A DNA stretch of 48,041 nucleotides from Parcubacteria group bacterium (GCA_943356745.1 CALRFT010000006.1:1-48041); one strand, 5' to 3'. Numbered from the stretch's first letter, positions 1 through 13,418 are shown. Notes: a model not told the origin generated them from the letters alone. Numbers and translations are program-made.

Positions 1-1743
1 ATTTTTATACTCTTTTCTTTTTTCTTTGCGTCTTTCGCATATGCAGAAAATATTGACCCAGCAGATGCTGGTAATGATTTTGCGGTGCTTGAGTTTGATG
101 ATTCCCAAATATCTTTTGATTGTACTTCTTGTAATGTTGAAGTAACTGATTCTGAAATTACAGGATATGCTTGGGGAGAAAACACTGGTTGGATCAATCT
201 TCAGCCTGGATCTTCTGGAGTTTTAAATGACGGTAATGGAAACCTTTCGGGATATGCTTGGGGAGAAAACACTGGTTGGATAAATTTCGAACCAACTTTC
301 GGAGGGGTTTCTATTGTTGACGGAGAATTTGACGGATATGCTTGGAGTGAAAATTATGGATGGATTCAATTTGATTGTGGGATTTCTGGTGCGTGTGTTG
401 AAACAAGTTGGCAGCCTGCAGGTGAGGAACCAGGAGGGGGTGGTGGAGGTGGGGGGTCTGGAGGAAGTAATCCAAATCCAGTAGATCCAATCCCAGGTTG
501 TACAGATAACGCTGCTTTGAATTTTAATTTGCAAGCAAATCAAAATGATGGAAGCTGTATTTTCCCAGCAGATACTATTTTTGGTTGTACTGTGAGTGAG
601 GCTCTCAATTACAACCCTAATGCTGATATAGATGATAATTCATGCCAGTTTGGTCAGGTGGAAACTCCAGATAATCCAGAAGATGATGACGGTGAAAACC
701 CTTTTGATTTACCAAATGAAGATACTGATCCGGAAAGTGAAGATGACCAAAACGGAGAATCTCTCGGGGGTTCTTCTCAAAATGAAGAGGGAAATAATAA
801 TACCTTTATTCCAAATTACACTTTTTCAAAAATTGATGTAGAGGAGGCTTCAAAAATAATCCCAATAATTCTTCTTGGTCTTTCTTTGCTTTCTATACCA
901 TTTCAACAACTACTTCAAGTTCCATCTCGAGCGGCTCAACTTATCTTCTCTTGGTTTGGAATTGGAAAGAAAAAAACATGGGGAGTGGTTTTTGATTCAA
1001 TGACAAAACAAGCTCTTGACCCTGTTGTTGTTGCATTGAAAGATATGCAGGGAAAAATAGTTCAAACCTCAATCACAGACATGGAGGGAAGGTTTGGATT
1101 TATTACAAGCCCTGGATTATATAGTTTGGAAGCACATAAGGCAGACTACACTTTCCCATCTCAAAAACTTGCTGGAAAAACTGGAGATGGATTGTATGAC
1201 GACTTGTATTTCGGTGGAACATTTCAAGTATTAGAAGAGGGGGAAATTATTACAAAAAATATTCCTCTCGATGCTGTAAACTTTAACTGGAACGAATATG
1301 AAAAAGCTCGTCTTGGAATCGGACACAAAAAAACTTTGTGGGAGAAAATTCAAAAATACGGAACCGCAATATTTGCTTTTGGATTCACCTTATCAATTGT
1401 CGCTGTGTTTATCCTCCCAACAATTTGGAACTATATCGTTCTCGGTTTGTATATTGTTGCGGGAATTCTTCAAATGCTTGGACTTCCAAAACATTCAGGA
1501 AAAGTTACAAGAAATGGACAACCACTTTCTTTTGGTGTGATGAGAGTATTTTCAAATTCACTCAAAAAAGAAATGAAAAAAGTTGTAATAGATAATCTTG
1601 GTAACTACTATTGTCTCATTAGAAGCGGGGAGTACTATGTAACATTTGAACAAAGAAATGAAGATGGTACATATGGGCTTGTCTATACTTCAGAACCATT
1701 TAAGGTTCGAAATGGTTCAATCCGTAAAAAATTTAATATTTAA
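1..1743 (+). CDS. Secreted/membrane-anchored mosaic surface protein, 5'-truncated by the window edge
   Basis: Frame 1 is open from base 1 (IFILFSFFFASFAYA|ENIDP..., the end of a signal peptide), so the start lies upstream of the window, not at 85. It has three GYAW(G/S)ENxGWI repeats, a Gly linker, two GCT-x3-ALN(F/Y)N-x2-A-x2-D-x-SC repeats, an acidic linker, TM segments and carboxypeptidase-regulatory-like beta domains (TSITDMEGRFGF..PGLYSLEAHK). Confidence 0.75.
   Translation: MFILFSFFFASFAYAENIDPADAGNDFAVLEFDDSQISFDCTSCNVEVTDSEITGYAWGENTGWINLQPGSSGVLNDGNGNLSGYAWGENTGWINFEPTFGGVSIVDGEFDGYAWSENYGWIQFDCGISGACVETSWQPAGEEPGGGGGGGGSGGSNPNPVDPIPGCTDNAALNFNLQANQNDGSCIFPADTIFGCTVSEALNYNPNADIDDNSCQFGQVETPDNPEDDDGENPFDLPNEDTDPESEDDQNGESLGGSSQNEEGNNNTFIPNYTFSKIDVEEASKIIPIILLGLSLLSIPFQQLLQVPSRAAQLIFSWFGIGKKKTWGVVFDSMTKQALDPVVVALKDMQGKIVQTSITDMEGRFGFITSPGLYSLEAHKADYTFPSQKLAGKTGDGLYDDLYFGGTFQVLEEGEIITKNIPLDAVNFNWNEYEKARLGIGHKKTLWEKIQKYGTAIFAFGFTLSIVAVFILPTIWNYIVLGLYIVAGILQMLGLPKHSGKVTRNGQPLSFGVMRVFSNSLKKEMKKVVIDNLGNYYCLIRSGEYYVTFEQRNEDGTYGLVYTSEPFKVRNGSIRKKFNI
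163..281 (+). repeat. 32-bp exact intragenic direct repeat (163-194 and 250-281) encoding GYAWGENTGWI; diverged third copy at about 334-365
   Basis: ggatatgcttggggagaaaacactggttggat is identical in both copies. Confidence 0.9.
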
Positions 1744-1747
1744 AAAT

Positions 1748-1787
1748 AAAAACAAACCCATCTGTTGAAAAGGTGGGTTTGTTTTTT
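1748..1787 (+). terminator. Intrinsic terminator-like hairpin
   Basis: AAAAACAAACCCATCT-gttgaaa-AGGTGGGTTTGTTTTT directly after the stop. Confidence 0.75.
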
Positions 1788-1803
1788 GGTACAATACAAA
1801 GAC

Positions 1804-4620
1804 ATGAAGAGGAATTTTCTCTACATACTTATACTTCTTCTCTCTCTCACTTTTTATACAAAAAGTGTTTTTGCTGTACCACCAGCAGGAGGATATGAAC
1901 CAGGGGAAACACTTGATCCAAACTGTGCTCCGGGGGATGCAGATTGTATTGTGACTCCACTCATTGCTCAAGATGAAGGAGTGGATCTTTCAGGTAATGT
2001 TCTCAAATTAAACTTCACAGGTGATGGAGTTTCTTCAAGTATTTCAAGTGGAGTGGTGACAGTGAATGTGCCAGGAGGGCCAATAGAAGAACTTTTTCCT
2101 GGAGGGCAGTTTGGCCAAGGTTCAACTCTTTCTAGTACAGGAGTCGGTGCTGCTACAGGTACTAGTATAGGAGGTAATGTTTATTTAGGTTGGCAAGCAG
2201 GGCATAGCGAGCTAAATTCTGGTTACGGTAATACAGCGGTTGGAAGCAAAGCTGGTTCGAGTCTGTTTTTCTCTGGAATAGCAATTGGTCTTAATGCTGG
2301 AGGTGATGGAGACATTGCACCTCCTTTTGGTGATGGAAATGGACAAAATGGAGGTGTCTTTATTGGTCAAGGTGCTGGAAATACAGCTAGAGCAGTTGAT
2401 GGTATTGGTATTGGGGACGGTGCATTAAGACAGGCTTCTAGAATGACAAATGTTATTGCAATTGGTGAACGCGCAGGTTCCAACATAGCACTCACAAAAT
2501 CAACTAACCCTACCTCAAACTCTATCATGATTGGAGATGATACATATCACGGAGGTTTCTCAAACTCAATTGCCCTTGGTACAAACGCTGAAAATACTGC
2601 GCCTAACCAACTTCTTTTAGCTAGTTCGTACACAAACCTATCTCTCAGAGGTGTTAATTATGTTTTACCTGGAAGTGGTGGCGGAGCAGGTACTGTTCTA
2701 ACAAACGATGGTTCAAATAATCTTTCTTGGTCTGCAATTCCTGATAGTAATAATATAACACCTTCGCTCACTCTTCAGTCAACTTTCGAGCTACCTCAAT
2801 CATATTTGAATCTTCTTGGATATAAAGAATCCCTTTTCTTAAAATCTAGTAATCAATTTACAGCTATTGATGTTTCAAATCCTTATTTGCCAAATATTAT
2901 AGATTCAGAAACTCTTACTAGTTCTTCAGGGAATTCTGGCGCTATGGATATTGATACTAATACTGCCGTAGTTTCTACTGGGGATAATATAGATATATTT
3001 GATATATCAAACACATCAAATATAGTAAAGACAGATACTCTATCAATTACAGAGCCATATGATATTAAAATATACGGTCAATATGTTTATGTGCTACATA
3101 ACTCTGTTTCAAATACACTTTCAGTTGTAGATATTTCAGATAAACAAAATGTCTCTATTGTTAATACAGTTTCATTATCTTTTAGTTCACCTCGAATTAT
3201 TTCGTTAGAAAATGACACAATGGTAATTGGAGATCTGGGAGAAATTCAAATCATTGATGTTTCAAACTCATCAGATCCAGTTCATGTTGAGACTTCAAAT
3301 AATCTTGGGTCTTCGTATTTTTTTAACAATGCTACAATCGACGGTAACTATGCTTATGTTAGTTATAACGATGGTGTAACTCTTGAGTTAAGAGTTGTAG
3401 ATATTTCAGATATTTCTAATATAGTTAATTATTATTCCGTAGAAACAGGAGGTGTATTCTTGGTGAGACTTGAAAAACAAGGAGATTATTTGATTGCCAC
3501 TGGCTATGGATCTGGATCTGCGACTATTAATATGTTGAATATAGAAGATCCTGACAATGTTTCTCTTGTGTCATCTATTAATGCAGATACCGATGAACTT
3601 ACAGGAACTGCTATAATTGGAAATAGGGTATTTACAGCTGATGTTGTTGAGGTTACAAATAATTTGTATACATATAATATTGGAGGTATTAAAACACCCT
3701 CGATTATTTCATCTGTCATAAAAGCTGGTGATATTACAGCACAGAAAATAATTTCAAATTTTGCTAAGATAGATAATGCACTTTCGGTGGGGCAGGGTGG
3801 TATAATCTCCTCTGGATTAATGAGTATTTCTCCGAATTTTTCTACAGATCAAATTGCATTAAGAGCAGGAAGTTCATTTGTAACTGATGGAACTGCGATT
3901 CTTCGACTTCAAGATGCAAACAGTACTTGTGATTTTGATGCTGATACTGGATCTCCAACTTGCGGATCTGATGAAACACTTAAGAAAAATATTTCTTCAA
4001 TAGAAGGTTCACTTTCAAAAGTTTTAGGTCTTCGACCTGCAAACTATAATTGGCTTACTGAAGAAGATGAGGCACCACTTCAACATGGATTTATTGCACA
4101 AGAAGTAGAGGTAGTATTTCCTCATTTGGTAAGTGAAAATACTTGGATTGATGGAACAACAAGAAAGTTCTTGAACACCGGAGGAATGATTCCATACATT
4201 GTCGGTGCAATCAAAGATATGTATACAGAATTTAAGACAAATTTTGTGACGAAGCGTGTTCAGGTTGAAGAAGAGATTTGTTTTGATGATGTGTGTTTGG
4301 ATAAAGAAAAAGTTCTTGAGCTTTTGAATGAATCAAATATAAGTTCATCATCAAATTATAATCAAGATCAAGAAGAGGGTCAGGTGATTGAATCTTCCGA
4401 AAATAATTCAACCCTACAAAACCAAACCTCTTTATCTGAAGAACAAACACAAGAAGAAACATCAGTAAACACTGAAGTAGACACAGAAGAGCAGGTCACA
4501 AACCAAAACCTTGTAGAAAAACTACTAGAAGAACAACCAGCTCCAACAGAAAAACAAACTACAGAGGAAACTGAAAATGGCTCAGTAGAAGAAACAATTG
4601 CCCAGCAAACTACTGAATAA
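1804..4620 (+). CDS. Secreted fibre/adhesin-like protein with Gly-rich head repeats, LVIVD-like repeats and a peptidase S74 intramolecular chaperone domain
   Basis: ATG at 1804 begins a signal peptide (MKRNFLY...SVFA|V); the 1765 start lies inside the terminator. YadA-head-like xxIGxxAG repeats, LSVVDIS/LRVVDIS/IQIIDVS repeats, the S74 motifs CGSDETLKKNI and GFIAQEVEVVFPHLV, and an acidic tail are present. Confidence 0.75.
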   Translation: MKRNFLYILILLLSLTFYTKSVFAVPPAGGYEPGETLDPNCAPGDADCIVTPLIAQDEGVDLSGNVLKLNFTGDGVSSSISSGVVTVNVPGGPIEELFPGGQFGQGSTLSSTGVGAATGTSIGGNVYLGWQAGHSELNSGYGNTAVGSKAGSSLFFSGIAIGLNAGGDGDIAPPFGDGNGQNGGVFIGQGAGNTARAVDGIGIGDGALRQASRMTNVIAIGERAGSNIALTKSTNPTSNSIMIGDDTYHGGFSNSIALGTNAENTAPNQLLLASSYTNLSLRGVNYVLPGSGGGAGTVLTNDGSNNLSWSAIPDSNNITPSLTLQSTFELPQSYLNLLGYKESLFLKSSNQFTAIDVSNPYLPNIIDSETLTSSSGNSGAMDIDTNTAVVSTGDNIDIFDISNTSNIVKTDTLSITEPYDIKIYGQYVYVLHNSVSNTLSVVDISDKQNVSIVNTVSLSFSSPRIISLENDTMVIGDLGEIQIIDVSNSSDPVHVETSNNLGSSYFFNNATIDGNYAYVSYNDGVTLELRVVDISDISNIVNYYSVETGGVFLVRLEKQGDYLIATGYGSGSATINMLNIEDPDNVSLVSSINADTDELTGTAIIGNRVFTADVVEVTNNLYTYNIGGIKTPSIISSVIKAGDITAQKIISNFAKIDNALSVGQGGIISSGLMSISPNFSTDQIALRAGSSFVTDGTAILRLQDANSTCDFDADTGSPTCGSDETLKKNISSIEGSLSKVLGLRPANYNWLTEEDEAPLQHGFIAQEVEVVFPHLVSENTWIDGTTRKFLNTGGMIPYIVGAIKDMYTEFKTNFVTKRVQVEEEICFDDVCLDKEKVLELLNESNISSSSNYNQDQEEGQVIESSENNSTLQNQTSLSEEQTQEETSVNTEVDTEEQVTNQNLVEKLLEEQPAPTEKQTTEETENGSVEETIAQQTTE

Positions 4621-4639
4621 AATTCTTCATAGTGTGACA

Positions 4640-4672
4640 AGAAAAACCCCTACTAAACTAAGGGCTTTTTCT
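4640..4672 (+). terminator. Weak terminator-like hairpin
   Basis: AGAAAAACCCCT-actaaacta-AGGGCTTTTTCT (imperfect). Confidence 0.5.
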
Positions 4673-4686
4673 GTAATTAGAAATAA

Positions 4687-4757
4687 CTTGCATTTTTCTG
4701 TATATATTGTATTATTTAAATAAATTAAAACCCAAAAAAATGAAAAAGTTCTTTGTT
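4687..4757 (+). promoter_or_regulatory. Sigma70-like promoter, A-rich leader and start; copy 1 of a duplicated expression module
   Basis: TTGCAT(4688)-N16-TATTAT(4710) followed by aaaacccaaaaaaATGAAAAAGTTCTTTGTT; 63/72 identical to 7759-7830 by manual alignment. Confidence 0.7.
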
Positions 4758-5453
4758 TCTATCGTATTATGTTTCTCTTGCGTCTTTGTTCGAGGGCAAG
4801 ATACATGCCTTGTTGAAAATATGGAAGTTGTGGGAAGTCTTGGCGGTGCTTGGCTTCGTCAATCCTTCACTCTTGCAGAAGATATTTCTCATCCCCATAT
4901 TTCTATGCCGATTTATGCACCAATCACAACTTTTATGGTCCGAATCAGTTTGTATCAAGGAAGTGTCTGGGATCAAAATCCTACCTTGCTTGGTGAGATA
5001 GTGCAAGGGCCTGTTGTAGCAAATCCAAATAGCTGGTGGCCAGATATTCCATGGTTTGGAATATCTGTACCAAATATCACTTTGTATGCTGGGCAGCAGT
5101 ATTTCATAGAAATACAAGATGATGCCGAGGATATTAGTGTGTTTTCTTTTGGACAAGCTGGATTTGATGATCTTTTTCCTGGAGGAGAACAGCGTGATCC
5201 ATTCACAAATCAAATCACTACTAATGTATGGTTTTCTGATATCGCAATACGAATCAGTGGAACCTGCGGTGAAGCATGTCTTGGAGATATTAACCAAGAC
5301 GGTATTGTCGGGATAGCCGACATTATGATTGTGCTCAACACCTTTAGTTGTGTTGGTGCGAACTGTGGTCTCTCGGACTTGGATGGCAACGGTGTTGTCG
5401 GCGCATCAGATCTTCTTCTCATTATGAATCTCTTTGGAGAATCATGTAATTAA
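4740..5453 (+). CDS. Secreted protein with C-terminal dockerin-like (double EF-hand) domain
   Basis: Signal peptide MKKFFVSIVLCFSCVFVRG|Q from ATG 4740; C-terminal CLGDINQDGIVGIADI...SDLDGNGVVGASDLL...FGESC. Confidence 0.7.
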   Translation: MKKFFVSIVLCFSCVFVRGQDTCLVENMEVVGSLGGAWLRQSFTLAEDISHPHISMPIYAPITTFMVRISLYQGSVWDQNPTLLGEIVQGPVVANPNSWWPDIPWFGISVPNITLYAGQQYFIEIQDDAEDISVFSFGQAGFDDLFPGGEQRDPFTNQITTNVWFSDIAIRISGTCGEACLGDINQDGIVGIADIMIVLNTFSCVGANCGLSDLDGNGVVGASDLLLIMNLFGESCN

Positions 5454-5459
5454 AAAAGT

Positions 5460-5491
5460 AATCCCCATTTCTTACGAAATGGGGATTTTTT
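5460..5491 (+). terminator. Intrinsic terminator
   Basis: AATCCCCATTTC-ttac-GAAATGGGGATT-TTTT. Confidence 0.8.
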
Positions 5492-5512
5492 AGTGTATAA
5501 TTTGTATACAGT

Positions 5513-7708
5513 ATGCGTAAAATTTACATAGCTATCATAGCTTTTTTTGGTATTGTGGGATTTGCTCATGGTGTTTTTGCTGCGCCGCCAACTGGTGGCT
5601 ACACTCCAGGACAAACACTCGACCCAAACTGTGCTCCGGGGGATACTGACTGTGTTGTAACCCTAACTCCATCTCCATGGGAAGTTTCTGGATCTAACAT
5701 TTTCTACGATGCAGGTAATGTTGGGATTGGGACAAGCAACCCTGGATCTGCAAATTTTATGGTTGTTGGTGATAGTCTCTTTAGAGGTCGGGCTGATTTT
5801 GAGGGATTATCAGGATCTTCTACTGTAATTTCCTCTGGTATTCTTGGTACTGAGGGTGGTTTGTATGCTTCCTCTGGCGATCAGCAAATAGCAACCTATG
5901 ACGAGCTTACTAGTTTCTACAGATATGCAAACGGTGCTTTAGTGTATGATGAAAACAATAATGAATTTACTCAAACAGGTTTGAGTAAATTTACCAGAGG
6001 TAGTGCAACTGGAACTTATTTATCTGCTGAGATTCTTGAAACAGAGGCAGGACTTTACAGTGCGGTTGCAGATCAACAAATAGCAACGTATGACGAAATT
6101 TCAAACAGGTATACTTATGCCAATGGGGCATTACAATACAACGCAGACACTGGATTTTTAGGTGTTGATGGAATATCCACATTCGAACTTATCGCTGGTG
6201 GAAATGTATCTTTTTATACTGAAGGCTTAGGGATCAATGCCAATACAGTACACCCTTCAGCCGTGCTCGATATTTCTTCTACGACCCAAGGTTTACTTGC
6301 TCCACGAATGACGACGGTTCAAAGAAATGCCATAGCATCACCTGCAACAGGTCTTTTGGTGTACAACACCACAGACAATGCTTTTAATTTCTATAATGGA
6401 ATATCTTGGACAACATTCGGGGGCGGTAGTAGTTTGATTGGATCTACTAGTCAAATCAATCCAGGTGCTATATTCGAAACTTTTCTTGGGGAAGAGGCGG
6501 GAAGTGTCGGTGATATGGAATCAGCTGTGGCTGTTGGTTGGAGGGCAGGTAAAAGTAATACAGATTCTGGGGGAGTTTTTATTGGTGGAGAAGCGGGATA
6601 TACTCCAAATTCTGGTGATCTTTTCACTTCTACAATAGTTGGTCTTCGAGCAGGATATGAATCAGAAGGAGACATTACAGCTTTTGGAGAGCTTGCAGGT
6701 AGTGGTGTAAGTATGCCAAATGGAAATTATGGAACATTTGTGGGTTATGCAGCAGGTTCTGATGCAACCAATGCCAGTGATTCTGTTTTTATAGGAAGTG
6801 GTGCAGGTTCTTCAGCAGCTAGTGCACGAAATAGTATTTTTATTGGTGCAAATGCTGGCACTGCTGATTTTGTTGATAATACCACTTCAGAATATTCTAT
6901 CCTTATTGGTAAAAATACTTCTACTGGAAACTTTTCAAACTCGATTGCTCTTGGTTTCAGTGCTGCAAACACCGCCTCAAATCAATTCCTTATCGGTAAT
7001 AGTACCTCAAGCCCTATCAATACTACTCGTATCAACGGTAGTGCAGGTACTCAATGTACCATCACCACGGGGACAGGTATCGCGTGTACTTCAGATGAAA
7101 GGCTGAAGGATAATATACAAAGTATAGAGGATGGTATTCTAGAAAAGATACAAGGATTAGATGCTGTGACCTATACATGGAGTCAGGATGAAAATAGTAC
7201 AACTCAAATAGGATTTCTTGCTCAGCAATTGGAAACAATCTTCCCTGAACTAGTAGCCACAGACAGTGAAGGATACAAATCTGTATTTTACTCACAAATG
7301 GTACCAATACTCACTAAGGGGATACAAGAGATATATGAATTAGTGGAAGGAATATTTGAAAATCTGGAAACACAAAGAGTTCAGACAGAAGAACTCTGTG
7401 TCGGCTCAACATGTATTACTGAAGAGCAATTTTTGGAAGTGTTTGGTTCAACAGGGCAATCTGGTTATGTTGAACAAAACAGTCAGGAGCAAAATGAAGT
7501 AATGCAAGATAATCAAAATTCTGAAAATCAACAAATTGTACCTGAGGAGAATAATGAAGCATTAGACCAATCTCAGAATCAAGAAAATAACCCAGAAATC
7601 ACTTTAACTGAAACAGAATCTTCACAAGAGGAAGCTGAAATTCAGCTCATGGAAGAAACAACCCAAGAGGGAGATATGCAAAATATCGAACCTTCTAATA
7701 TTGAATAA
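5513..7708 (+). CDS. Second secreted fibre/adhesin-like protein with a peptidase S74 chaperone domain
   Basis: Signal peptide and the same N-terminal PPxGGYxPGxTLDPNCAPGDxDC motif as 1804..4620. It also has GNVGIGT, SAVLDISSTTQGLLAPRMTTVQRNAIASPATGLLVYNT, xxIGxxAG repeats, the S74 motifs CTSDERLKDNI and GFLAQQLETIFPELV, and an acidic tail. Confidence 0.75.
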   Translation: MRKIYIAIIAFFGIVGFAHGVFAAPPTGGYTPGQTLDPNCAPGDTDCVVTLTPSPWEVSGSNIFYDAGNVGIGTSNPGSANFMVVGDSLFRGRADFEGLSGSSTVISSGILGTEGGLYASSGDQQIATYDELTSFYRYANGALVYDENNNEFTQTGLSKFTRGSATGTYLSAEILETEAGLYSAVADQQIATYDEISNRYTYANGALQYNADTGFLGVDGISTFELIAGGNVSFYTEGLGINANTVHPSAVLDISSTTQGLLAPRMTTVQRNAIASPATGLLVYNTTDNAFNFYNGISWTTFGGGSSLIGSTSQINPGAIFETFLGEEAGSVGDMESAVAVGWRAGKSNTDSGGVFIGGEAGYTPNSGDLFTSTIVGLRAGYESEGDITAFGELAGSGVSMPNGNYGTFVGYAAGSDATNASDSVFIGSGAGSSAASARNSIFIGANAGTADFVDNTTSEYSILIGKNTSTGNFSNSIALGFSAANTASNQFLIGNSTSSPINTTRINGSAGTQCTITTGTGIACTSDERLKDNIQSIEDGILEKIQGLDAVTYTWSQDENSTTQIGFLAQQLETIFPELVATDSEGYKSVFYSQMVPILTKGIQEIYELVEGIFENLETQRVQTEELCVGSTCITEEQFLEVFGSTGQSGYVEQNSQEQNEVMQDNQNSENQQIVPEENNEALDQSQNQENNPEITLTETESSQEEAEIQLMEETTQEGDMQNIEPSNIE

Positions 7709-7712
7709 GTCT

Positions 7713-7745
7713 ACAAAAAGCCCGCTTTTGAGTGGGCTTTTTTGT
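7713..7745 (+). terminator. Intrinsic terminator
   Basis: ACAAAAAGCCCGCT-tttg-AGTGGGCTTTTTTGT. Confidence 0.8.
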
Positions 7746-7758
7746 TTGTTTTAAAAAG

Positions 7759-7830
7759 CTTGCATTTTTATTTTTATATTGTATAATGTAGCTAAATCAA
7801 AACCCAAAAAAAATGAAAAAGTTCTTTGTT
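7759..7830 (+). promoter_or_regulatory. Sigma70-like promoter, A-rich leader and start; copy 2 of the duplicated expression module
   Basis: TTGCAT(7760)-N16-TATAAT(7782) followed by aaaacccaaaaaaaATGAAAAAGTTCTTTGTT. Confidence 0.75.
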
Positions 7831-9348
7831 AGTTTAATGCTTTTTGTGTCATGTTTTGGCGCTCAAGCTCAAGATGAAACTTGTCCAGAAGGGACAGTTC
7901 AATACATTGTTGCTATTACTGTTGACTACTATGGATCAGAAACAGGATTTTACATTAATGAAAATCCCGACATGATTCAGTATGATGGAGTAAATGACCC
8001 AATCTCAAGCCTTGGTCCGATTGTTTATTCAATTCCCGCAGGTACTTATCCTGACTTAATTCAGGGGCAAACTTTTTTTGAAGAAGTTTGCCTTACTAAT
8101 GGATGCTATTCCTTCAGTATTTATGATACTTGGGGAGATGGTATAGGATTTACAAATGGCTCATATCAGCTTTTGGTGGGGGATTCTGTAGTATTGTTTG
8201 GCGGTGGAAATTTTGGCGCCTGGGATTCACAAGTTTTTTGTGTTGATTCAGCGATCGAAATTTTATCTGTTCTTGGTTGTACTGATACTAGTGCTTGTAA
8301 CTATTATCCAGGCGCAACAGAAGATGATGGAAGCTGTTTGTTTCATGGCTCGCCATGTGCACATGAGAATCCTCTCATTACGAATGCAGTTTTTAATGAA
8401 AATTGTTTTTGTGAAGGAAGTATTATTTACGGATGTACAGATTCACTTGCTATGAACTACAATCCAGAAGCAGCTGTTTCCGATGGTCAATGTTATTACA
8501 CACCAGGTTGCACTGAAATCTTGGCTTGTAACTACAATCCACTGGCTGATTGGAACGACGGTAGCTGTGATTTTGTGTCTTGTATGGTCATTGGATGTAT
8601 GGATGAATTGGCAAATAATTATGATTCACTTGCTACTCTTCCAAACCCCAATGCTTGTCTGTATCAAACAGTATCTTTTTCAGTTGTTCAAAACTGCAAA
8701 GAGGTTATGTTGATCAACACAACTCCAGACGCTCCCGTGGCTGGTCCCGGCGTATTCTTTATTTGGGAGTTTGGGGATGGTGAAAGTCTTACTACATTGT
8801 ATGATACTTTGTATTATGGATATGAAAATGGTAGCTATACTATTACACTTATCTATGCGCAAGGTATGTCGCTTCAGTCGGTGTCTTACGACATTACGGT
8901 CTCTGATTTTTTAGAAACCCCGGAGCTTCAACTTGTGGGTCAGACACTTGTCTGTTCTGCAGATGCAGTGGAGTATCGATGGTTTTTAGATCAGGTGGAG
9001 ATTGCTGTCACTTCTGATAATGCACTTGAGGTTAATGCTACTGGTGAGTACCGCTGTCAACTTGTTGGACATGGTGGATGTCTTGCGTCTTCTCTTCCAT
9101 ATATAGTGAACACTGTCTCGTTGGAAGAAATGAAAGACGTACAACCTTTCATTGCCCCTACTTTAGTCAACACAGATTTTACTGTGAGAAATATAGAGGG
9201 TCTCTTGTCTATTTATGATATTTCAGGACAAGGTGTCTGGGAAGGGAATGTATATAATGGAGTGCGGGTAGACTGTTCTTTCCTTGCGTCTGGAACGTAT
9301 GTGGTAAGATTGCCAAATTGGACCACTTTACGTTTTGTAAAAAATTAA
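7813..9348 (+). CDS. Secreted Cys-repeat/PKD/Ig-like protein with a T9SS type-A sorting-domain-like C-terminus
   Basis: Signal peptide MKKFFVS...AQA|Q; GCYSFSIYDTWGDGI domain; four GC(T/M)(D/E)xxAxNY repeats; PKD-like WEFGDG...GSYTITL; C-terminal SIYDISGQ...LASGTYVVRL...LRFVKN. Confidence 0.7.
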   Translation: MKKFFVSLMLFVSCFGAQAQDETCPEGTVQYIVAITVDYYGSETGFYINENPDMIQYDGVNDPISSLGPIVYSIPAGTYPDLIQGQTFFEEVCLTNGCYSFSIYDTWGDGIGFTNGSYQLLVGDSVVLFGGGNFGAWDSQVFCVDSAIEILSVLGCTDTSACNYYPGATEDDGSCLFHGSPCAHENPLITNAVFNENCFCEGSIIYGCTDSLAMNYNPEAAVSDGQCYYTPGCTEILACNYNPLADWNDGSCDFVSCMVIGCMDELANNYDSLATLPNPNACLYQTVSFSVVQNCKEVMLINTTPDAPVAGPGVFFIWEFGDGESLTTLYDTLYYGYENGSYTITLIYAQGMSLQSVSYDITVSDFLETPELQLVGQTLVCSADAVEYRWFLDQVEIAVTSDNALEVNATGEYRCQLVGHGGCLASSLPYIVNTVSLEEMKDVQPFIAPTLVNTDFTVRNIEGLLSIYDISGQGVWEGNVYNGVRVDCSFLASGTYVVRLPNWTTLRFVKN

Positions 9349-9353
9349 AATCT

Positions 9354-9390
9354 AAAAAGCTTCGCACGTGTGCGAAGCTTTTTCTTTTTT
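9354..9390 (+). terminator. Intrinsic terminator (14-bp perfect inverted repeat)
   Basis: AAAAAGCTTCGCAC-gt-GTGCGAAGCTTTTT followed by a T-rich tract. Confidence 0.8.
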
Positions 9391-9415
9391 CTTTTTTTAT
9401 ATACAATAGTTTTAT

Positions 9416-9919
9416 ATGAATACAATCAAAGATTATGGAAATTTTGGACCGATGAGTTCATCTAAAAAGAAAAAACATATTACTTTAAAACGAGGGGTAT
9501 TTTTTGGGTTGATAATTCTCCTACTCGCGGCTTTAGTTGGAGCTGGATTTTTGTGGTACAAGAAAAATCAATCACCAGAAGAATTGTCTCAAAAACAAAC
9601 AGAAAAACTTCTTGAAGAAATGTCTCGGTTTGTACTTCTCCCTGATGAGATTCCAGCTGTTTTTACTATTTCAGATATTGATACCCTTGTTCAACAGCAA
9701 CCTTTTTTTACAGGTGCCCAAAATGGGGATGTTCTTTTCGTTTTTCCTCAAGCTGTGAAGGCTGTAGTTTATAGTCCAGACCGAAAGCGGATTATAAATA
9801 TGGGTCCTGTGACAGGAACTGGATCAGAAAATTCACAAATAAGTCAGCAGATAAGTGCCCCAGCCCAACGAACAGGAGAGATTATATCAAACGAAGACAT
9901 AGAGGCTCCAGTGGAATAA
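9416..9919 (+). CDS. Hypothetical single-pass membrane protein
   Basis: Lys-rich N-terminus and one TM helix; QPFFTGAQNGDVLFVF...VVYSPDRKRIINMGP resembles a conserved CPR hypothetical family (from memory). Confidence 0.7.
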   Translation: MNTIKDYGNFGPMSSSKKKKHITLKRGVFFGLIILLLAALVGAGFLWYKKNQSPEELSQKQTEKLLEEMSRFVLLPDEIPAVFTISDIDTLVQQQPFFTGAQNGDVLFVFPQAVKAVVYSPDRKRIINMGPVTGTGSENSQISQQISAPAQRTGEIISNEDIEAPVE

Positions 9920-9957
9920 TATAAAAAAAGACTGTTTTCAACAGTCTTTTTTTATAT
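9919..9957 (+). terminator. Terminator, 18-bp perfect inverted repeat
   Basis: ATATAAAAAAAGACTGTT-ttc-AACAGTCTTTTTTTATAT. Confidence 0.8.
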
Positions 9958-10026
9958 ACACGATATAATACAAGGGTGGCGTGTTCTATGGTTTTATTAG
10001 TTTTTAGTAACATTTATACATAATAC

Positions 10027-11577
10027 ATGAAGAAATTTATAATACTATGCTTACTCGGAATGGCGATTGCTACTCCTCAGAGTTCTCAAGCAGTAACTCT
10101 TTCTGAGGTTGTCACAAAAATAGAACAACTTCAAAGAGATGTTGAGGATCTTCGTATGAGATTTATGGGGCAAGCTAGTGGCGCAGCTCTCGTGGGTGGG
10201 TTAGCAACTCCACTTCGAAGAGGTTCGACAGGAGTTGAGGTAACAGAGCTACAAAACTTTTTATCTGAGCGAGGTTTCTATACCGGACTCGTTGACGGAG
10301 TATTTGGTATGTCTACACTCAATGCTTTGAATGCATACAAAGCTTCACTTGGATTTTCAAGCTTTGGATCTTCTTTTGGGGGATCTTGGCGAGTGATTGG
10401 TGATCCTGTCACAACATATGTAGTGAGTTCATCAGCATGTAAGGCAGACTTTGATGGAAATGGAAGAGTTCAGATAGCAGACTATATTCTACTTGAAGAA
10501 AAACTTGGTACAGTTCCAAGTCCTGATCAAATTATGTTCGATATTAAAGTTGATGGTATTATCGACAAATATGATATTCGAGAATGGATGACACATTACG
10601 GAAAAACAAATTTCTGTTTTAATGCTCAAGCGTCAACAGAAGCACAGTGGATTGCAAGTACTGCTGGTAATGTAGTAAATCCACCAGCGCCAAGTGCGGT
10701 ACCTGCAAATTCAAACTGGTCAGCAGAAACTTTGGGAATTGCAGAAGAAGACGCGTGGCTTTGGGATTATCAGGTGGTGCGAGTTACTAGACATGCACGA
10801 CGACAGGTTCCTGTGACAGTCGGGGGTGTTTCATCAGGAAATGGTTTTGTGAGTGTGATTGAGCCAGTACAAAACTCTCCAGTTACTCTACTTGCACACC
10901 AATTTGCTGGTATGTATGATCGAGTAGAAAACAACAATGGTACATTGTTTCTTGTTCAAGAGGCAACATATATATCACCAAATGGACGACAACATGATAC
11001 TGTACGAAAGTTTGAATTGAAAAAGCCAACTGCAAGTGAAAACCAAACAACAAGTATCGATATGATATATACGAAAAGTGATACTGGAATTGAAGGAACA
11101 ATCTATATCAACAAGCGACCAATTTCTTCATATAATGGAGTGTTTCCAAGATTCTTTAACTTCTTTACTACAGACGCAAAATGGATGATGACGATGAGAG
11201 TTTTGAATGATGGTCCTATTGAAAATACAAGTGTGCTTGGGGTAAATGATAATGCCCCAGAAGCAGCATTTACTTTTGAAACAATCGCGGATCCAAGATT
11301 GGCATCAATCAATATTATGCAAGGATCTTCTACTTTTAATCCAACAACACCACAAGGATATTACAATCCAGATACTAATACTATCACTTTGAAGCCAAAC
11401 CAAGGACAGGTAGTATGGTTTAAACTTTTCCAAAAACCACCTTCAGTATTTCCAATAGGATTTTCTGGTATGAGTGAGACAAAAACATTTGGAACAGATT
11501 TTGCTATTAATCTCCAAAGAAATACAGCTGTGATTCAAAATGGTGATTTTGTGTCATTGCAAGAACAGGGACTTTAG
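10027..11577 (+). CDS. Secreted protein with a peptidoglycan-binding domain (PG_binding_1-like) and a dockerin-like EF-hand pair
   Basis: Signal peptide, short coiled coil, LRRGSTGVEVTELQNFL...VDGVFGMSTLNAL and CKADFDGNGRVQIADY...DIKVDGIIDKYDI; the C-terminal half was not recognised. Confidence 0.7.
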   Translation: MKKFIILCLLGMAIATPQSSQAVTLSEVVTKIEQLQRDVEDLRMRFMGQASGAALVGGLATPLRRGSTGVEVTELQNFLSERGFYTGLVDGVFGMSTLNALNAYKASLGFSSFGSSFGGSWRVIGDPVTTYVVSSSACKADFDGNGRVQIADYILLEEKLGTVPSPDQIMFDIKVDGIIDKYDIREWMTHYGKTNFCFNAQASTEAQWIASTAGNVVNPPAPSAVPANSNWSAETLGIAEEDAWLWDYQVVRVTRHARRQVPVTVGGVSSGNGFVSVIEPVQNSPVTLLAHQFAGMYDRVENNNGTLFLVQEATYISPNGRQHDTVRKFELKKPTASENQTTSIDMIYTKSDTGIEGTIYINKRPISSYNGVFPRFFNFFTTDAKWMMTMRVLNDGPIENTSVLGVNDNAPEAAFTFETIADPRLASINIMQGSSTFNPTTPQGYYNPDTNTITLKPNQGQVVWFKLFQKPPSVFPIGFSGMSETKTFGTDFAINLQRNTAVIQNGDFVSLQEQGL

Positions 11578-11624
11578 CCCAATAAAAATAACCTCTCTCG
11601 AGGTTATTTTTATTGGGCTAAAGT
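11571..11624. terminator. Bidirectional terminator: 25-bp perfect inverted repeat covering both convergent stop codons
   Basis: actttagcccaataaaaataacctc-tctc-gaggttatttttattgggctaaagt. Confidence 0.85.
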
Positions 11625-12260
11625 AAAACCATACACAGACCTTGCTCCATTTTGAATTAAAATATTTTTTAATTCAAAAATAGTTGCTCCTGTTGTTGTT
11701 ACATCGTCTATAATAATTATGTTTTTGTTTTTAAAAAAATCTTTATTTGTGATACTAAAACATTTTGAAATATTTGCTATTCTTTCATTTTTATTTTGTA
11801 TCTTCGCTTGAGGTATTGTATATCTATTTCTTATGATATGTTTTGTATCTATATTAAACAATGAAGGATTTCGTGAATATATCCCGAATGCAATTAGTTC
11901 AGATTGATTAAACCCTCTTTCCTTGAGTCGTTTTGTATGAAGAGGAACAGGTATGAGTACTGGTTTTTCTAAATTATTAAACAATTGTAAATCTTGCATT
12001 TCATCAAGTAAAACATCAAAAGCTTTTCGAGATAGGGTATATGCAATATCTTTTTTATTATAAAATTTTAAATTCCAAATAGCTTTTTTAACAATTGGAT
12101 TTTTATAAGAAAATGCAAAAAATATATCACTTCTTTTATTTTTTATTTCAAAAGGTATTTTTTCAAGGCAGGTGTTGCAAAGGTGTGTTTCATATTTTTG
12201 AAGACAATTAACACAATGTATTGGAAATAGTATATTAAGAAATTTCTTTAACAAATCCAT
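11610..12260 (-). CDS. comF: ComF family competence protein (amidophosphoribosyltransferase-like)
   Basis: LFPIHCVNC...LCNTC, IPVPLH..RLKERGFNQS and IIIIDDVTTTGAT (PRTase motif). The start was placed at MDLLKK (12260) to avoid overlap with pilM. Confidence 0.9.
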   Translation of the reverse strand: MDLLKKFLNILFPIHCVNCLQKYETHLCNTCLEKIPFEIKNKRSDIFFAFSYKNPIVKKAIWNLKFYNKKDIAYTLSRKAFDVLLDEMQDLQLFNNLEKPVLIPVPLHTKRLKERGFNQSELIAFGIYSRNPSLFNIDTKHIIRNRYTIPQAKIQNKNERIANISKCFSITNKDFFKNKNIIIIDDVTTTGATIFELKNILIQNGARSVYGFTLAQ

Positions 12261-12278
12261 GGTATAATTGTAATACAT
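12260..12278. promoter_or_regulatory. Overlapping divergent -10 elements for comF and pilM
   Basis: + strand TGgTATAAT (12260-12268), 10 nt before the pilM ATG; - strand TACAAT (12272-12267), 6 nt before the comF ATG. Confidence 0.6.
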
Positions 12279-13418
12279 ATGGCTAATATTCTTCAAGATA
12301 TAACAAAAAATTTTTCTGCATTATTTAAAAATAAATCACAGGGTAGTGTGATTGGTGTTGATATTGGTTCTTCTTCAATAAAAGTTGTACAACTAAAAAC
12401 AGAAGGTGGTATTGCTGTTCTTGAAACATATGGAGCTGTATCTTTTGGATCGTATATTTCAAATTCATATATAGGACAAGCTGTTAATCCATCTCACGAC
12501 CAAACTATTCAAGCGATAAATGATCTAATAAAAGAGGCAAATATAACGACCCTTTCTGCGGCGGTGTCTATACCCTCTGCGTCGAGCCTTGTTTTTCTTA
12601 TTGAACTTCCTGCGACTGTGCCACAAAAAGAATTTGCAAATGTAATTCCTCTTGAGGCGAGAAGATATATTCCAGTACCAATGACAGAAGTTTCAATTGA
12701 TTGGTGGGTTGTTCCTCATGATGAAGTTTTTGAAGGGAATGACGATTCTGGAGAGATTGAAAATATTAAAAAAGTAAGACCTTTTCGGGTGCTTGTTGCA
12801 GCAATACACAATGAAGCCCTCGGTCGTTTTCAAGAAGTTGTAAAAGACGCAAAGCTTTCTTCAGATTTTTTTGAAATTGAAATGTTTTCTAATGTGAGAT
12901 CTTGTATTGGTAAAGATCTTTCCAATGTTGTATTAGTAGATTTCGGAGCGGCAAAGACAAAAGTTACTGTTGTGTACAGGGGAGTACTTCAAGATTTTCA
13001 TATTGTAAATCGAGGCTCTCAAGATCTCACAAGGATACTCTCAACCGGATTAAATATCCCTGTTGTAAAAGCAGAAGAGGTTAAGAAAAAATATGGAATA
13101 CTTCCAAATGATGAATACAAAGAATCTGAAAATATTATTTCAAGTTCTTTAGAGTATTCTATGGCAGAAATAAATAATATTATTTTATCATATGAAAAAA
13201 AATATAATCAGAGTATTGATAAAATAATTATTACAGGTGGAGGATCTGCACTTCCGGGGCTTGTTGAATATATGTCAAAAAAACTTCCAGCACCTGTTTC
13301 AAAATCACATCCGTTTTCTCATGTGAAATCACCAGCTTTTTTAGACCCAATTTTAGCAGAAGTAGGTCCCGAATTTGGTGTCGCTCTTGGTCTTGCGATG
13401 AGAAAGTTAACTTCGTAA
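12279..13418 (+). CDS. pilM: Type IV pilus assembly protein PilM
   Basis: Actin-like fold motifs IGVDIGSSSIKVV, LVDFGAAKT, IIITGGGSALPG and VALGLAMR; first gene of the T4P operon. Confidence 0.92.
   Translation: MANILQDITKNFSALFKNKSQGSVIGVDIGSSSIKVVQLKTEGGIAVLETYGAVSFGSYISNSYIGQAVNPSHDQTIQAINDLIKEANITTLSAAVSIPSASSLVFLIELPATVPQKEFANVIPLEARRYIPVPMTEVSIDWWVVPHDEVFEGNDDSGEIENIKKVRPFRVLVAAIHNEALGRFQEVVKDAKLSSDFFEIEMFSNVRSCIGKDLSNVVLVDFGAAKTKVTVVYRGVLQDFHIVNRGSQDLTRILSTGLNIPVVKAEEVKKKYGILPNDEYKESENIISSSLEYSMAEINNIILSYEKKYNQSIDKIIITGGGSALPGLVEYMSKKLPAPVSKSHPFSHVKSPAFLDPILAEVGPEFGVALGLAMRKLTS

What the first reader, a model, noticed from the sequence alone, without database searches (positions are those of the whole stretch)
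1804..9348. Tandem two-gene cassette: S74 fibre gene plus an interchangeable secreted cargo gene behind a duplicated promoter and start
Seen: the order is fibre1-terminator-cargo1-terminator-fibre2-terminator-cargo2-terminator. The two cargo genes encode unrelated mature proteins. Even so, 4687-4757 and 7759-7830 are 63/72 identical by manual alignment, covering TTGCAT-N16-TATWAT, the aaaacccaaaaaa leader and the first six codons (both proteins begin MKKFFVS and have FxSC...Q-D). The two fibres share N- and C-terminal modules but have different middles. Inference: this is a reusable expression/export 'socket' into which foreign surface-protein bodies are swapped, paired with modular trimeric fibres. 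It could be an undescribed CPR host-attachment or diversification system next to the T4P locus.
Basis: partly seen in the sequence, partly recalled or inferred. Interest (0 to 1): 0.8.

Follow-up and report, generated by a model that had tools for sequence, protein, structure and literature searches.

The report
Shared promoter-start on two surface genes
In a tiny lake bacterium of the candidate phyla radiation, two unrelated secreted surface proteins sit between two fibre genes and share one duplicated promoter, leader and first seven codons; this looks like a one-off local duplication in a variable surface-protein island, not a device for swapping genes.

Summary
The order is fibre1 (1804-4620), cargo1 (4740-5453), fibre2 (5513-7708), cargo2 (7813-9348). 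Regions 4687-4757 and 7759-7830 are 63/72 identical. The mature cargo proteins are unrelated.

The "swap socket" reading is mostly not supported.
- The module occurs only twice in the 686-kb genome.
- It was not found in 19 other genomes of the family.
- A closely related strain (L029) keeps the same four genes in the same order.
- A fibre followed by a secreted protein is not a general unit: only 3 of 18 downstream genes in the order start with a signal peptide.

What is real:
- Both fibres are Sec-exported S74 fibres of a kind common in this order (149 of 301 genomes).
- Cargo2 is built from Bacteroidota-type parts. Its N-domain matched Bacteroidota in 76 of the 80 best loci and 0 of 400 other Patescibacteria. 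It therefore looks acquired and placed behind a local sigma-70-like promoter.
- Cargo1 has an orphan core plus a dockerin.
- Strains differ inside cargo2, after residue 150 or 250, and downstream of it.

This scan already noted T9SS-like tails elsewhere in this genome (e1-744156). Interest is moderate to low.

The parts
1748..1786 (+). Terminator hairpin of the upstream surface-protein gene (1-1743)
   Evidence: Inverted repeat I7, 19-nt arms, 89% complementary
1804..4620 (+). Fibre1: signal peptide, conserved N-terminal Cys motif, Gly-rich repeats, LVIVD/beta-propeller-like middle, S74 intramolecular-chaperone domain (3967-4131, starts SDETLK), acidic low-complexity tail
   Evidence: (PF13884 55.8 bits; LVIVD 27.5 bits). 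A TACAAT box at 1790-1795 lies 8 nt before the ATG (read by eye), so the mRNA may be near-leaderless (inference).
2201..2600 (+). Strain-variable segment inside fibre1 (50-62% identity to strain L029, where the flanks are 93-99%)
4637..4674 (+). Weak hairpin plus T-run after fibre1 (poor terminator; read-through into cargo1 is possible)
   Evidence: -10.8 kcal/mol, z -1.9. Not listed by the terminator scan.
4687..4757 (+). 5' module, copy 1: TTGCAT (4688-4693), 16-nt spacer, TATTAT (4710-4715), leader with AAAACCC (4727-4733) and an A-run, ATG 4740, then codons 1-6 (MKKFFV)
   Evidence: Promoter and leader roles are inferred from sequence only.
4740..5453 (+). Cargo1: signal peptide (MKKFFVS...VRG|QD), orphan beta-sandwich core (about aa 25-175), C-terminal dockerin with two DxNxDG-type repeats (5280-5429)
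5460..5487 (+). Strong intrinsic terminator after cargo1
   Evidence: -17.9 kcal/mol, z -5.0
5513..7708 (+). Fibre2: signal peptide, the same N-terminal Cys motif, Gly-rich repeats, S74 domain (7091-7255, starts SDERLK), acidic tail
   Evidence: 58.9 bits; PDB 8jov tail fibre, E 3e-5. TATAAT at 5496-5501 lies 11 nt before the ATG (read by eye).
7715..7742 (+). Strong intrinsic terminator after fibre2
   Evidence: -16.8 kcal/mol, z -4.0
7759..7830 (+). 5' module, copy 2: TTGCAT (7760-7765), 16-nt spacer, TATAAT (7782-7787), AAAACCC (7799-7805), A-run of variable length among strains, ATG 7813, then codons 1-6
   Evidence: A-run length differs in L029 and in one run.
7813..9348 (+). Cargo2: signal peptide (..AQA|QD), Bacteroidota-type beta-sandwich N-domain (7876-8259), Cys-rich GCTD..ACNY repeats (three DNA copies found at 8275-8541), PKD-like domain (about 8734-8901), T9SS-type C-terminal sorting-domain-like tail (about 9193-9315, below cut-off)
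9354..9383 (+). Strong intrinsic terminator after cargo2
   Evidence: -16.9 kcal/mol, z -5.5
8600..11600 (+). Strain-hypervariable zone: 3' half of cargo2, a small membrane protein (9416-9919) and a peptidoglycan-binding/dockerin protein (10027-11577). Identity to L029 is 44-72% at DNA level, where the backbone is 96-100%.

Best explanation
The region is a lineage-specific block of four separate surface-protein genes. It sits in a 0.69-Mb Patescibacteria (CPR) genome from lake water, just upstream of comF and the type IV pilus operon.

The two fibres are Sec-exported S74 fibres, a type common in this order. The C-terminal S74 chaperone probably helps folding or trimerisation and then cuts itself off at the Ser of SDE(T/R)LK (inferred from the family).

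The two 'cargo' genes are unrelated. Each encodes a signal peptide, a small beta-sandwich domain of binding type, and a C-terminal tag for surface attachment.
- Cargo1 has an orphan core and a dockerin.
- Cargo2 has a Bacteroidota-type N-domain, Cys repeats, a PKD-like domain and a decayed T9SS-type sorting domain. It most likely came by horizontal transfer from Bacteroidota.

Their shared 72-97-nt 5' module arose by a local duplication or gene conversion. The module comprises a sigma-70-like -35/-10 pair, an A-rich leader without a Shine-Dalgarno site, and the first seven codons. The duplication put a working local promoter, leader and Sec start in front of a second, unrelated gene (promoter and start capture). 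Selection has since kept the module.

It gives both genes the same transcription, translation start and export route. It is not an active exchange site. Strain diversity arises instead from mosaic replacement of the 3' part of cargo2 and of the genes downstream.

Shown: the anatomy, the homology of the module, its rarity, the foreign affinity of cargo2, and the strain mosaic. Inferred: promoter activity, export, anchoring, and the direction and mechanism of the duplication.
For: - Module homology and rarity: 63/72 identical, z about 5.5 against 495 other gene starts. Only two copies in the genome, E 1.2e-19. The genome has only 53 repeat pairs in all.
- No real match in the 19 other family genomes.
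- Unrelated mature proteins.
- Cargo2 N-domain: 176 relatives in species-representative genomes. Of the best 80, 76 carry Bacteroidota titles and none is Patescibacteria. The profile finds 0 of 400 other Patescibacteria genomes. Full-length relatives P0002-P0005 carry PF18962. Bacteroidota homologues sit in proteins with Q after the signal peptide and CTD-like ends.
- Cargo1 core: only 2 clusters among 1.84 billion representatives match the full length. All other hits match the dockerin only.
- The promoter is of the local sigma-70 type. Other genes of this genome have TTGACA-N17-TATAAT plus an AAAACCC leader. Shine-Dalgarno sites are rare genome-wide.
- The leader is kept in a relative: P0122 reads NKLKSKK-MKKFFV where the window reads NKLKPKK-MKKFFV.
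- Fixed content: L029 has the same order, with cargo1 99.6%, fibre2 95.6%, fibre1 90% and cargo2 69% identical.
- Independent contigs bridge the junctions fibre1-module-cargo1 and fibre2-module-cargo2 (records 20, 24, 29, 31).
- Mosaic: cargo2 residues 1-150 are 92-100% identical in three variants. The rest falls to 27-76% with sharp breaks at about 150 and 250.
- S74 fibres occur in 149 of 301 genomes of the order, but in only 2 of 20 in the family, G000 included.
Against: - No expression data. No RNA run was listed, and the promoter, leader and signal peptide are read from sequence only.
- The -35 is weak (3 of 6), and the promoter scan did not list the pair.
- The composition of the cargo genes is not an outlier (GC3 z +1.4 and +0.95), so transfer rests on the distribution of homologues alone.
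- The taxa of the closest full-length relatives (P0001-P0005, P0122-P0126) are unknown, because their contigs could not be fetched.
- Q after the signal peptide is not a clean foreign mark here: many other secreted proteins of this genome have it.
- Two copies cannot tell a small 5' copy from the remnant of a larger old duplication.
- Cargo2 and cargo1 relatives on short contigs of equal length (5,024 bp: P0130 and P0126) hint that a strain may combine a cargo2 of the P0002 type with a cargo1 only 42% identical. That would be allelic replacement of cargo1, and it could not be checked.
Confidence: 0.6

Rival explanations
1. Old tandem duplication of a whole fibre-plus-cargo unit. Only the constrained pieces are still alike: the fibre N-motif, the S74 domain and the cargo 5' module. 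One cargo body was later replaced downstream of the signal peptide by a foreign gene.
For: The two longest direct repeats of the region lie in the same order in both units, with similar spacing. D1 (fibre 5' end) is 78% over 91 nt at spacing 3706. D2 (cargo 5' module) has spacing 3072. The fibres are clear paralogues. These are the only two S74 genes of the genome.
Against: The non-coding part of the module is more alike than the third-codon positions in D1: about 15% divergence, read. The module is therefore either younger or under strong constraint. The cargo bodies share nothing, so this model still needs a non-homologous replacement and ends near the best explanation.
Confidence: 0.2
2. 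One reading: a reusable expression and export site at which surface-protein bodies are exchanged repeatedly. This would form a diversification system coupled to modular fibres.
For: Unrelated bodies stand behind one module. Cargo2 is foreign in make-up. The locus lies in a hypervariable zone. There is a possible strain with a 42%-identical cargo1 next to a P0002-type cargo2, from equal contig lengths only. The first 17 nt of the coding sequence are identical in a third gene of Bacteroidota style on C1.
Against: Only two copies exist, and none was found in the 19 other family genomes. L029 has the same two cargo genes in the same order. Strain breakpoints lie inside cargo2, not at the module. 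There are no inverted repeats or recombinase at the site. No module-to-module joint appeared in four runs (contigs only). The third gene has a different upstream region with a Shine-Dalgarno site. Genes after S74 fibres in the order are mostly unrelated: 3 of 18 have a signal peptide.
Confidence: 0.08
3. Assembly or binning artefact: Bacteroidota DNA joined by error into a CPR contig.
For: Cargo2 has Bacteroidota-type domains. GC3 of both cargo genes is slightly raised.
Against: An independent 111.5-kb metagenome contig (L029) has the same arrangement. Logan contigs of other runs bridge each fibre-cargo junction. The promoter and terminators are of the local type. Genome contamination is 0.25%.
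Confidence: 0.02

Closest known systems
Phage tail-fibre and endosialidase proteins with a C-terminal S74 intramolecular chaperone domain (Pfam PF13884; solved example PDB 8jov, 'putative tail fiber protein')
   Same: The C-terminal S74 domain is above cut-off in both fibres. It begins with Ser-Asp-x-x-Leu-Lys. Long fibre-like regions with Gly-rich repeats lie upstream.
   Different: These are cellular genes with Sec signal peptides, a conserved N-terminal Cys motif and long acidic tails after the S74 domain. They do not lie in a phage. The type is common in this CPR order (149 of 301 genomes). Sources annotate them only as 'tail fiber domain-containing protein'.
Bacteroidota type IX secretion cargo with a type-A C-terminal sorting domain (Por_Secre_tail, PF18962 / TIGR04183)
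   Same: Cargo2 has the layout of such cargo: a signal peptide ending AQA|Q, accessory beta-sandwich and PKD domains, and a C-terminal sorting-domain-like tail. Its relatives P0002-P0005 carry PF18962, and its N-domain is a Bacteroidota domain.
   Different: The tail of cargo2 itself is below cut-off: 21 against 23 bits, and 17.8 against 27. The host is a CPR bacterium. SprA, GldM and PorP models found nothing in it, though the controls were silent too. The gene stands behind a sigma-70-type promoter.
Cohesin-dockerin anchored surface proteins (Dockerin_1 PF00404; GC-type dockerin NF041540)
   Same: Cargo1 ends in two DxNxDG-type calcium-loop repeats. It scores 22.5-23.8 bits against a cut-off of 22.9. 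The atlas places it next to small 'GC-type dockerin domain-anchored' proteins.
   Different: No Pfam cohesin is found in the genome. The core domain is an orphan. There are no glycoside hydrolases or scaffoldin here.
Surface-protein gene families with a conserved 5' end (promoter plus signal peptide) and variable bodies, such as the Mycoplasma vlp, vsp and vsa loci (recalled from memory; no call)
   Same: There is a conserved promoter, leader and signal-peptide start in front of dissimilar surface-protein bodies, as direct repeats within one locus.
   Different: There are only two members, both complete and both with terminators. There are no silent cassettes, no recombinase or inversion sites, no repeat-driven phase switch shown, and no rearranged forms in related strains.
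Flexible or 'metagenomic' islands of surface genes, and allelic or domain exchange in surface proteins (PMC3909814 and PMC5266723; abstracts in search listings only)
   Same: A short zone of very low identity between otherwise 96-100% identical strains, centred on secreted proteins and with sharp mosaic breakpoints.
   Different: Here it is in a CPR genome of 0.69 Mb beside the pilus operon. The conserved part is the N-terminal domain of a foreign-type protein.

Membership tests
Peptidase_S74 intramolecular-chaperone fibre | C-terminal S74 domain above the curated cut-off | tested here: met
   55.8 and 58.9 bits against 22. Confirmed in the genome scan.
Peptidase_S74 intramolecular-chaperone fibre | Ser...Lys dyad at the start of the domain (the catalytic role is recalled knowledge) | tested here: met
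   SDETLK in fibre1 and SDERLK in fibre2 at profile position 1. Aligned to SDERLK of PDB 8jov.
Peptidase_S74 intramolecular-chaperone fibre | Trimeric fibre whose chaperone is released by self-cleavage | not testable with these tools
   No trimer model was made. Cleavage needs protein work.
T9SS type-A cargo | C-terminal sorting domain above cut-off | tested here: not met
   Cargo2 scores 21 against 23 bits for TIGR04183 and 17.8 against 27 for PF18962. It was not found by PF18962 in the genome scan at E<=1. Relatives P0002-P0005 do carry it.
T9SS type-A cargo | A T9SS translocon and attachment complex in the same genome | tested here: inconclusive
SprA, GldM and PorP-family models gave no match, but none of the 14 control genomes rang either.
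Dockerin-anchored protein | Dockerin module with two calcium-loop repeats | tested here: inconclusive
   22.5 bits in hmmscan (cut-off 22.9) and 23.8 bits in the genome scan. NF041540 gives 19.9 against 29. The two DxNxDG-type loops are visible in the sequence.
Dockerin-anchored protein | Cohesin partner encoded in the genome | tested here: inconclusive
PF00963 gave no match at E<=1.
Expression-site / shared-5'-end variable surface gene family | Several genes or silent cassettes that share the 5' module | tested here: not met
   Two copies in 685,622 bases. None in the 19 other family genomes.
Expression-site / shared-5'-end variable surface gene family | Recombination sites or a recombinase at the locus, and rearranged forms in the population | tested here: not met
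   No inverted repeats at the modules. No module-to-module joint in four runs (contigs only). The order is the same in L029. The nearest recombinase genes lie on the adjoining contig C7 at 6756-9492.

The most novel reading that the evidence does not exclude
The module is a domestication cassette. This CPR bacterium, probably living on other cells, takes surface-protein genes from Bacteroidota (possibly its host). It places them behind its own promoter, leader and signal-peptide start. It then displays them through dockerin or T9SS-type tails, on its own envelope or by using the host's outer-membrane machinery. Together with the S74 fibres and the neighbouring pili, they would serve host recognition or mimicry. 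The conserved head and variable tail of cargo2 would then track host surface variation.
Probability: 0.1. Interest if true: 0.75.

Novelty: new member of a known kind. Interest (0 to 1): 0.33.

Why it matters
If the best reading is right, this is a clean small example of how a streamlined CPR genome puts an acquired gene to work: it copies a working local promoter, leader and signal-peptide start in front of the gene.

It adds a further protein of Bacteroidota T9SS-cargo style to a genome where this scan had already noted such tails. It also shows where strains of this lake organism really differ, namely in the tail of cargo2 and the next two secreted proteins, beside the pilus operon.

That points to these proteins, more than to the module, as candidates for host or phage interaction. 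It does not reveal a new diversification machine.

Tried and rejected
- Complex prediction of the cargo2 tail (aa 425-511) with the 257-aa C1 protein: no verdict, score 0.00 (after the queue was full).
- Structure of cargo1: poor model (pLDDT 54). Its PDB matches are weak beta-sandwiches with TM 0.2-0.4, so no fold was assigned beyond 'beta-sandwich'.
- Cargo2 N-domain model: good (pLDDT 90.7), but no Foldseek match at E<=0.001. Best VIA Z is 6.5, to a calcium-dependent carbohydrate-binding module, tied with PLAT, TerD and other sandwiches. This is a generic sandwich and gives no function.
- No RNA holder was listed for the stretch.
- Laying four runs gave only short contigs, with no cover of 8801-9200 and 10001-10400. 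One joint, 158 to 8390, has a 23-nt side and probably comes from repeats or another organism.
- Cargo1 family in species-representative genomes: none.
- Metagenome scan: returned only L029.
- Rfam: nothing at or near gathering score in 1-12500.
- Type-I glutaminyl cyclase PF05096: no match.
- AAAACCC leader: 11 gene starts against a median of 4 for the 35 permutations of the word. This is a lead, not a finding.
- Composition: no outlier.
- Synteny upstream of comF/pilM in G011, G004, G019 and G015: contigs end or hold unrelated genes, so no ancestral state could be read.
- Literature; of 39 papers, 15 were listed, and none holds 'Patescibacteria'; of 59 papers, 12 were listed, and none holds both 'type IX secretion' and 'Patescibacteria'. 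I therefore found no description of S74 fibres or T9SS-type cargo in Patescibacteria in these listings.
- Supplements were not consulted.

Full report
WHAT IS THERE

The window is contig C6 of a 685,622-base, 8-contig genome. It is 96% complete with 0.25% contamination. All runs that hold the stretch are lake-water metagenomes. Earlier notes and the sources' names of fibre homologues place it among Paceibacteria-type CPR bacteria.

From 1804 to 9348 there are four genes on the + strand:
- fibre1, 1804-4620
- cargo1, 4740-5453
- fibre2, 5513-7708
- cargo2, 7813-9348

Strong terminators follow cargo1, fibre2 and cargo2 (-16.8 to -17.9 kcal/mol, z -4.0 to -5.5). Only a weak hairpin follows fibre1 (-10.8, z -1.9).

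Downstream lie a small membrane protein (9416-9919), a peptidoglycan-binding/dockerin protein (10027-11577) and a comF-like gene on the other strand. After these comes a full type IV pilus operon: PilM, PilO, PilB, PilT, PilC, pilins and prepilin peptidase.

Regions 4687-4757 and 7759-7830 are 63/72 identical. BLAST extends this to 97 nt at 81%.

Against 495 other gene starts of the genome, the mean is 38.4 matches (sd 4.4) and the best unrelated start has 50. The genome has only 53 repeat pairs at E<1e-8.

The module reads TTGCAT, 16 nt, TATTAT or TATAAT, about 11 nt, AAAACCC, an A-run, ATG, then MKKFFV. The -35 has only 3 of 6 consensus bases, and the scan tool did not list the pair. The promoter is therefore an inference.

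The mature cargo proteins share nothing (hhalign probability 0.2%).

The fibres share three parts: the signal peptide plus a Cys motif, a Gly-rich repeat block, and the S74 region.

WHAT THE GENES ARE

Both fibres carry Peptidase_S74 above cut-off. The domain begins SDETLK in fibre1 and SDERLK in fibre2, and aligns to a solved tail fibre (8jov). These are the only two S74 genes in the genome.

The type is common in the order (149 of 301 genomes, 113 of 191 genera). It is rare in the family (2 of 20 with G000). Named homologues are 'tail fiber domain-containing protein' of Paceibacteria and Nomurabacteria.

Cargo1 is a 237-aa protein with a signal peptide, a beta-rich core and a dockerin at the end.
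- The dockerin scores 22.5-23.8 bits around the cut-off of 22.9.
- Its core is an orphan. Five relatives were found among 5.8 billion clusters and none in species-representative genomes.
- In an exhaustive profile search of 1.84 billion representatives, only 2 clusters match over the full length. The other hits match the dockerin only.
- The model was poor (pLDDT 54).

Cargo2 (511 aa) has five parts:
- a signal peptide
- a 128-aa beta-sandwich N-domain (model pLDDT 90.7; no specific fold match)
- Cys-rich GCTD..ACNY repeats
- a PKD-like domain
- a T9SS sorting-domain-like tail below cut-off

The Cys repeats also occur in the gene at 1-1743 and in 16 of the 19 other family genomes.

CARGO2 LOOKS ACQUIRED FROM BACTEROIDOTA

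The N-domain has 176 relatives in species-representative genomes. By record title, 76 of the best 80 are Bacteroidota: Flavobacteriales, Saprospiraceae, Crocinitomicaceae, Bacteroidales and others. The other four are two Comamonadaceae MAG contigs, one Neomarinimicrobiota and one Zixiibacteriota. None is Patescibacteria. Assigning these names to phyla rests on my own knowledge.

A profile of 56 such domains found only G000 among 401 sampled Patescibacteria genomes.

In ten Bacteroidota loci that I read, the domain sits in secreted proteins or lipoproteins. Several end like T9SS cargo. Full-length relatives P0002-P0005 carry PF18962.

Composition gives no signal (GC3 z +0.95).

A glutamine right after the signal peptide fits the Bacteroidetes 'Q-rule' (PMC5837995 and PMC10653852, abstracts in a search listing). 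However, many other secreted proteins of this genome show it too, and no type-I glutaminyl cyclase was found. I give it little weight.

IS THE MODULE A SOCKET?

The evidence against:
1. The module occurs twice in the genome. The next best match is 81% over 41 nt, in front of an unrelated small gene.
2. The 19 other family genomes give only weak AT-rich hits. They lack cargo1 except for its dockerin and lack cargo2 except for its Cys repeats.
3. A closely related strain (L029) has the same genes in the same order and the same two modules. Identities: upstream protein 98%, fibre1 90%, cargo1 99.6%, fibre2 95.6%, cargo2 69%, ORF 9416 46%, ORF 10027 63%, comF 82%, PilM 96%.
4. A more distant relative seems to keep fibre2 (P0133, 69%), cargo1 (P0122, 81%) and cargo2 (P0128, 66%) on one 12,602-bp contig. 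A still more distant one seems to keep a cargo1 relative (P0123, 43%) with an S74 fibre (P0134) on one 105,721-bp contig. Both rest on equal contig lengths only.
5. There are no inverted repeats or recombinase at the modules.
6. Contigs of four runs show no joint between the modules. Several of them bridge the fibre-module-cargo junctions.
7. Fibre plus secreted cargo is not a general unit. I fetched 29 S74 loci from the order. My frame filter dropped 6, and 5 had no readable downstream gene. Of the remaining 18, 3 begin with a clear signal peptide and none begins MKKFF. Most look like housekeeping genes by their N-termini.

The evidence for:
1. The bodies are unrelated and one is foreign.
2. 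The leader seems to be under constraint. In P0122 the upstream frame reads NKLKSKK where the window reads NKLKPKK.
3. P0126 (cargo1 type, 42% identical) and P0130 (cargo2 of the P0002 type) both have a longest contig of 5,024 bp. This could mean a strain with a replaced cargo1. I could not fetch it.

WHERE STRAINS REALLY DIFFER

Against L029 the backbone is 96-100% identical. Three places fall well below that:
- 2201-2600 inside fibre1: 50-62%
- 8600-11600: 44-72%
- the acidic tails of both fibres: 87-92%

In cargo2, residues 1-150 are 92-100% identical among three variants. After breaks near residues 150 and 250, identity is 27-76%. The conserved head therefore extends far beyond the module, and the variable part is the tail.

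In relatives, contigs end just upstream of comF/pilM, or unrelated genes lie there. This fits a variable spot.

HOW IT MOST LIKELY WORKS

Four separate transcription units encode surface proteins. The fibres are exported by Sec, fold with the help of the S74 domain and probably shed it. Each cargo protein is exported by Sec and cut before Gln-Asp. It then likely attaches to the envelope by its dockerin or by its sorting-domain-like tail. No partner is shown for either: Pfam finds no cohesin, T9SS core models gave no match with silent controls, and the complex job gave no verdict.

The shared module gives both genes the same start of transcription, translation and export. It most likely arose by a local duplication or gene conversion that equipped an acquired gene with a working local 5' end.

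The promoter form (TTG..-N16/17-TATAAT), and possibly the AAAACCC leader, recur at other genes of this genome. AAAACCC stands before 11 gene starts, against a median of 4 for permuted words. Shine-Dalgarno sites are rare in this genome.

COMPARISON AND VERDICT

- The fibres are members of the S74 fibre family.
- Cargo2 works like, but is not shown to be, T9SS cargo.
- Cargo1 is a dockerin-tagged orphan.
- The locus resembles variable surface-gene families with a shared 5' end (recalled from memory). It fails their defining features of many copies, recombination sites and rearranged forms.

I confirmed one such domain above cut-off on C1 (47.2 bits) but not the PorP likeness of its neighbour.

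I found no paper on S74 fibres or T9SS-type cargo in Patescibacteria in two listings.

The finding is real but mostly ordinary: a duplicated 5' end in a variable surface-protein island. The probable Bacteroidota origin of cargo2 and its head-conserved, tail-variable mosaic are the parts worth a further look.

Noticed in passing
window 8600-11600: Strain-hypervariable zone: 44-72% DNA identity to strain L029 where the flanks are 96-100%. It covers the tail of cargo2, a 167-aa membrane protein and a 516-aa peptidoglycan-binding/dockerin protein. comF next to it is 82% identical at protein level.
   Followed up: partly
G000 contig C7:6616-23865 (C7 ends where the window begins): A 17-kb segment is absent from strain L029. 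It holds two serine-recombinase-like genes (6756-8135, 8116-9492), large helicase/methylase-like genes and ParB-like/methyltransferase genes. It is probably an integrated element or defence island, 3.4 kb upstream of the window.
   Followed up: partly
window 4727-4733, 7799-7805; also C4:81232(-), C4:80136(-), C5:7110, C5:18610, C5:19109, C1:244619, C1:59769: The leader word AAAACCC lies 4-14 nt before the ATG, often after a consensus TTGACA-N17-TATAAT promoter. It occurs at 11 gene starts, against a median of 4 for permuted words. It may be a leader or translation signal of this genome.
   Followed up: partly
whole genome G000: Shine-Dalgarno words are rare before gene starts. GGAGG lies 4-14 nt before an ATG-ORF of 100 aa or more only 32 times. 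Both fibre genes have a -10-like box only 8-11 nt before the ATG, which suggests near-leaderless mRNAs.
   Followed up: no
window 7806-7812: The A-run between AAAACCC and the ATG of cargo2 differs in length among strains. There is one more A in L029 and in run X8.
   Followed up: no
G000 C1:83141-83297 and C1:86161-86318: A 158-nt repeat, 94% identical, covers the 3' end and terminator of two neighbouring large secreted proteins on the minus strand. This is a shared 3' module rather than a 5' one.
   Followed up: partly
G000 C1:181315-182088(-), C1:182174-184237(-), C1:279628-282624(+): Further proteins of Bacteroidota style. A 257-aa protein has the same first 17 coding bases (MKKFFV) but a Shine-Dalgarno leader. 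Its 687-aa neighbour has a weak sorting-domain match (14.3 bits). A 998-aa protein has Por_Secre_tail above cut-off (47.2 bits).
   Followed up: partly
whole genome G000: Many predicted signal peptides are followed by Gln (for example at C1:174481, C1:254057, C4:1519, C4:60584, C4:65964, C5:54262). No type-I glutaminyl cyclase (PF05096) was found.
   Followed up: no
G011:C9, G004:C6, G019:C13, G015:C3 (loci L113-L116): In four relatives the contig ends, or unrelated genes lie, within 0.7-4.8 kb upstream of the comF/pilM pair. G004 has a serine-recombinase-like gene there. This looks like a recurrent variable spot.
   Followed up: partly
window 1-1743: The upstream secreted protein carries WGENTGWI-type repeats, the same GCTD..ALNY Cys repeats as cargo2, an acidic linker, and a membrane-spanning C-terminal half with a CarboxypepD_reg-like domain.
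   Followed up: no
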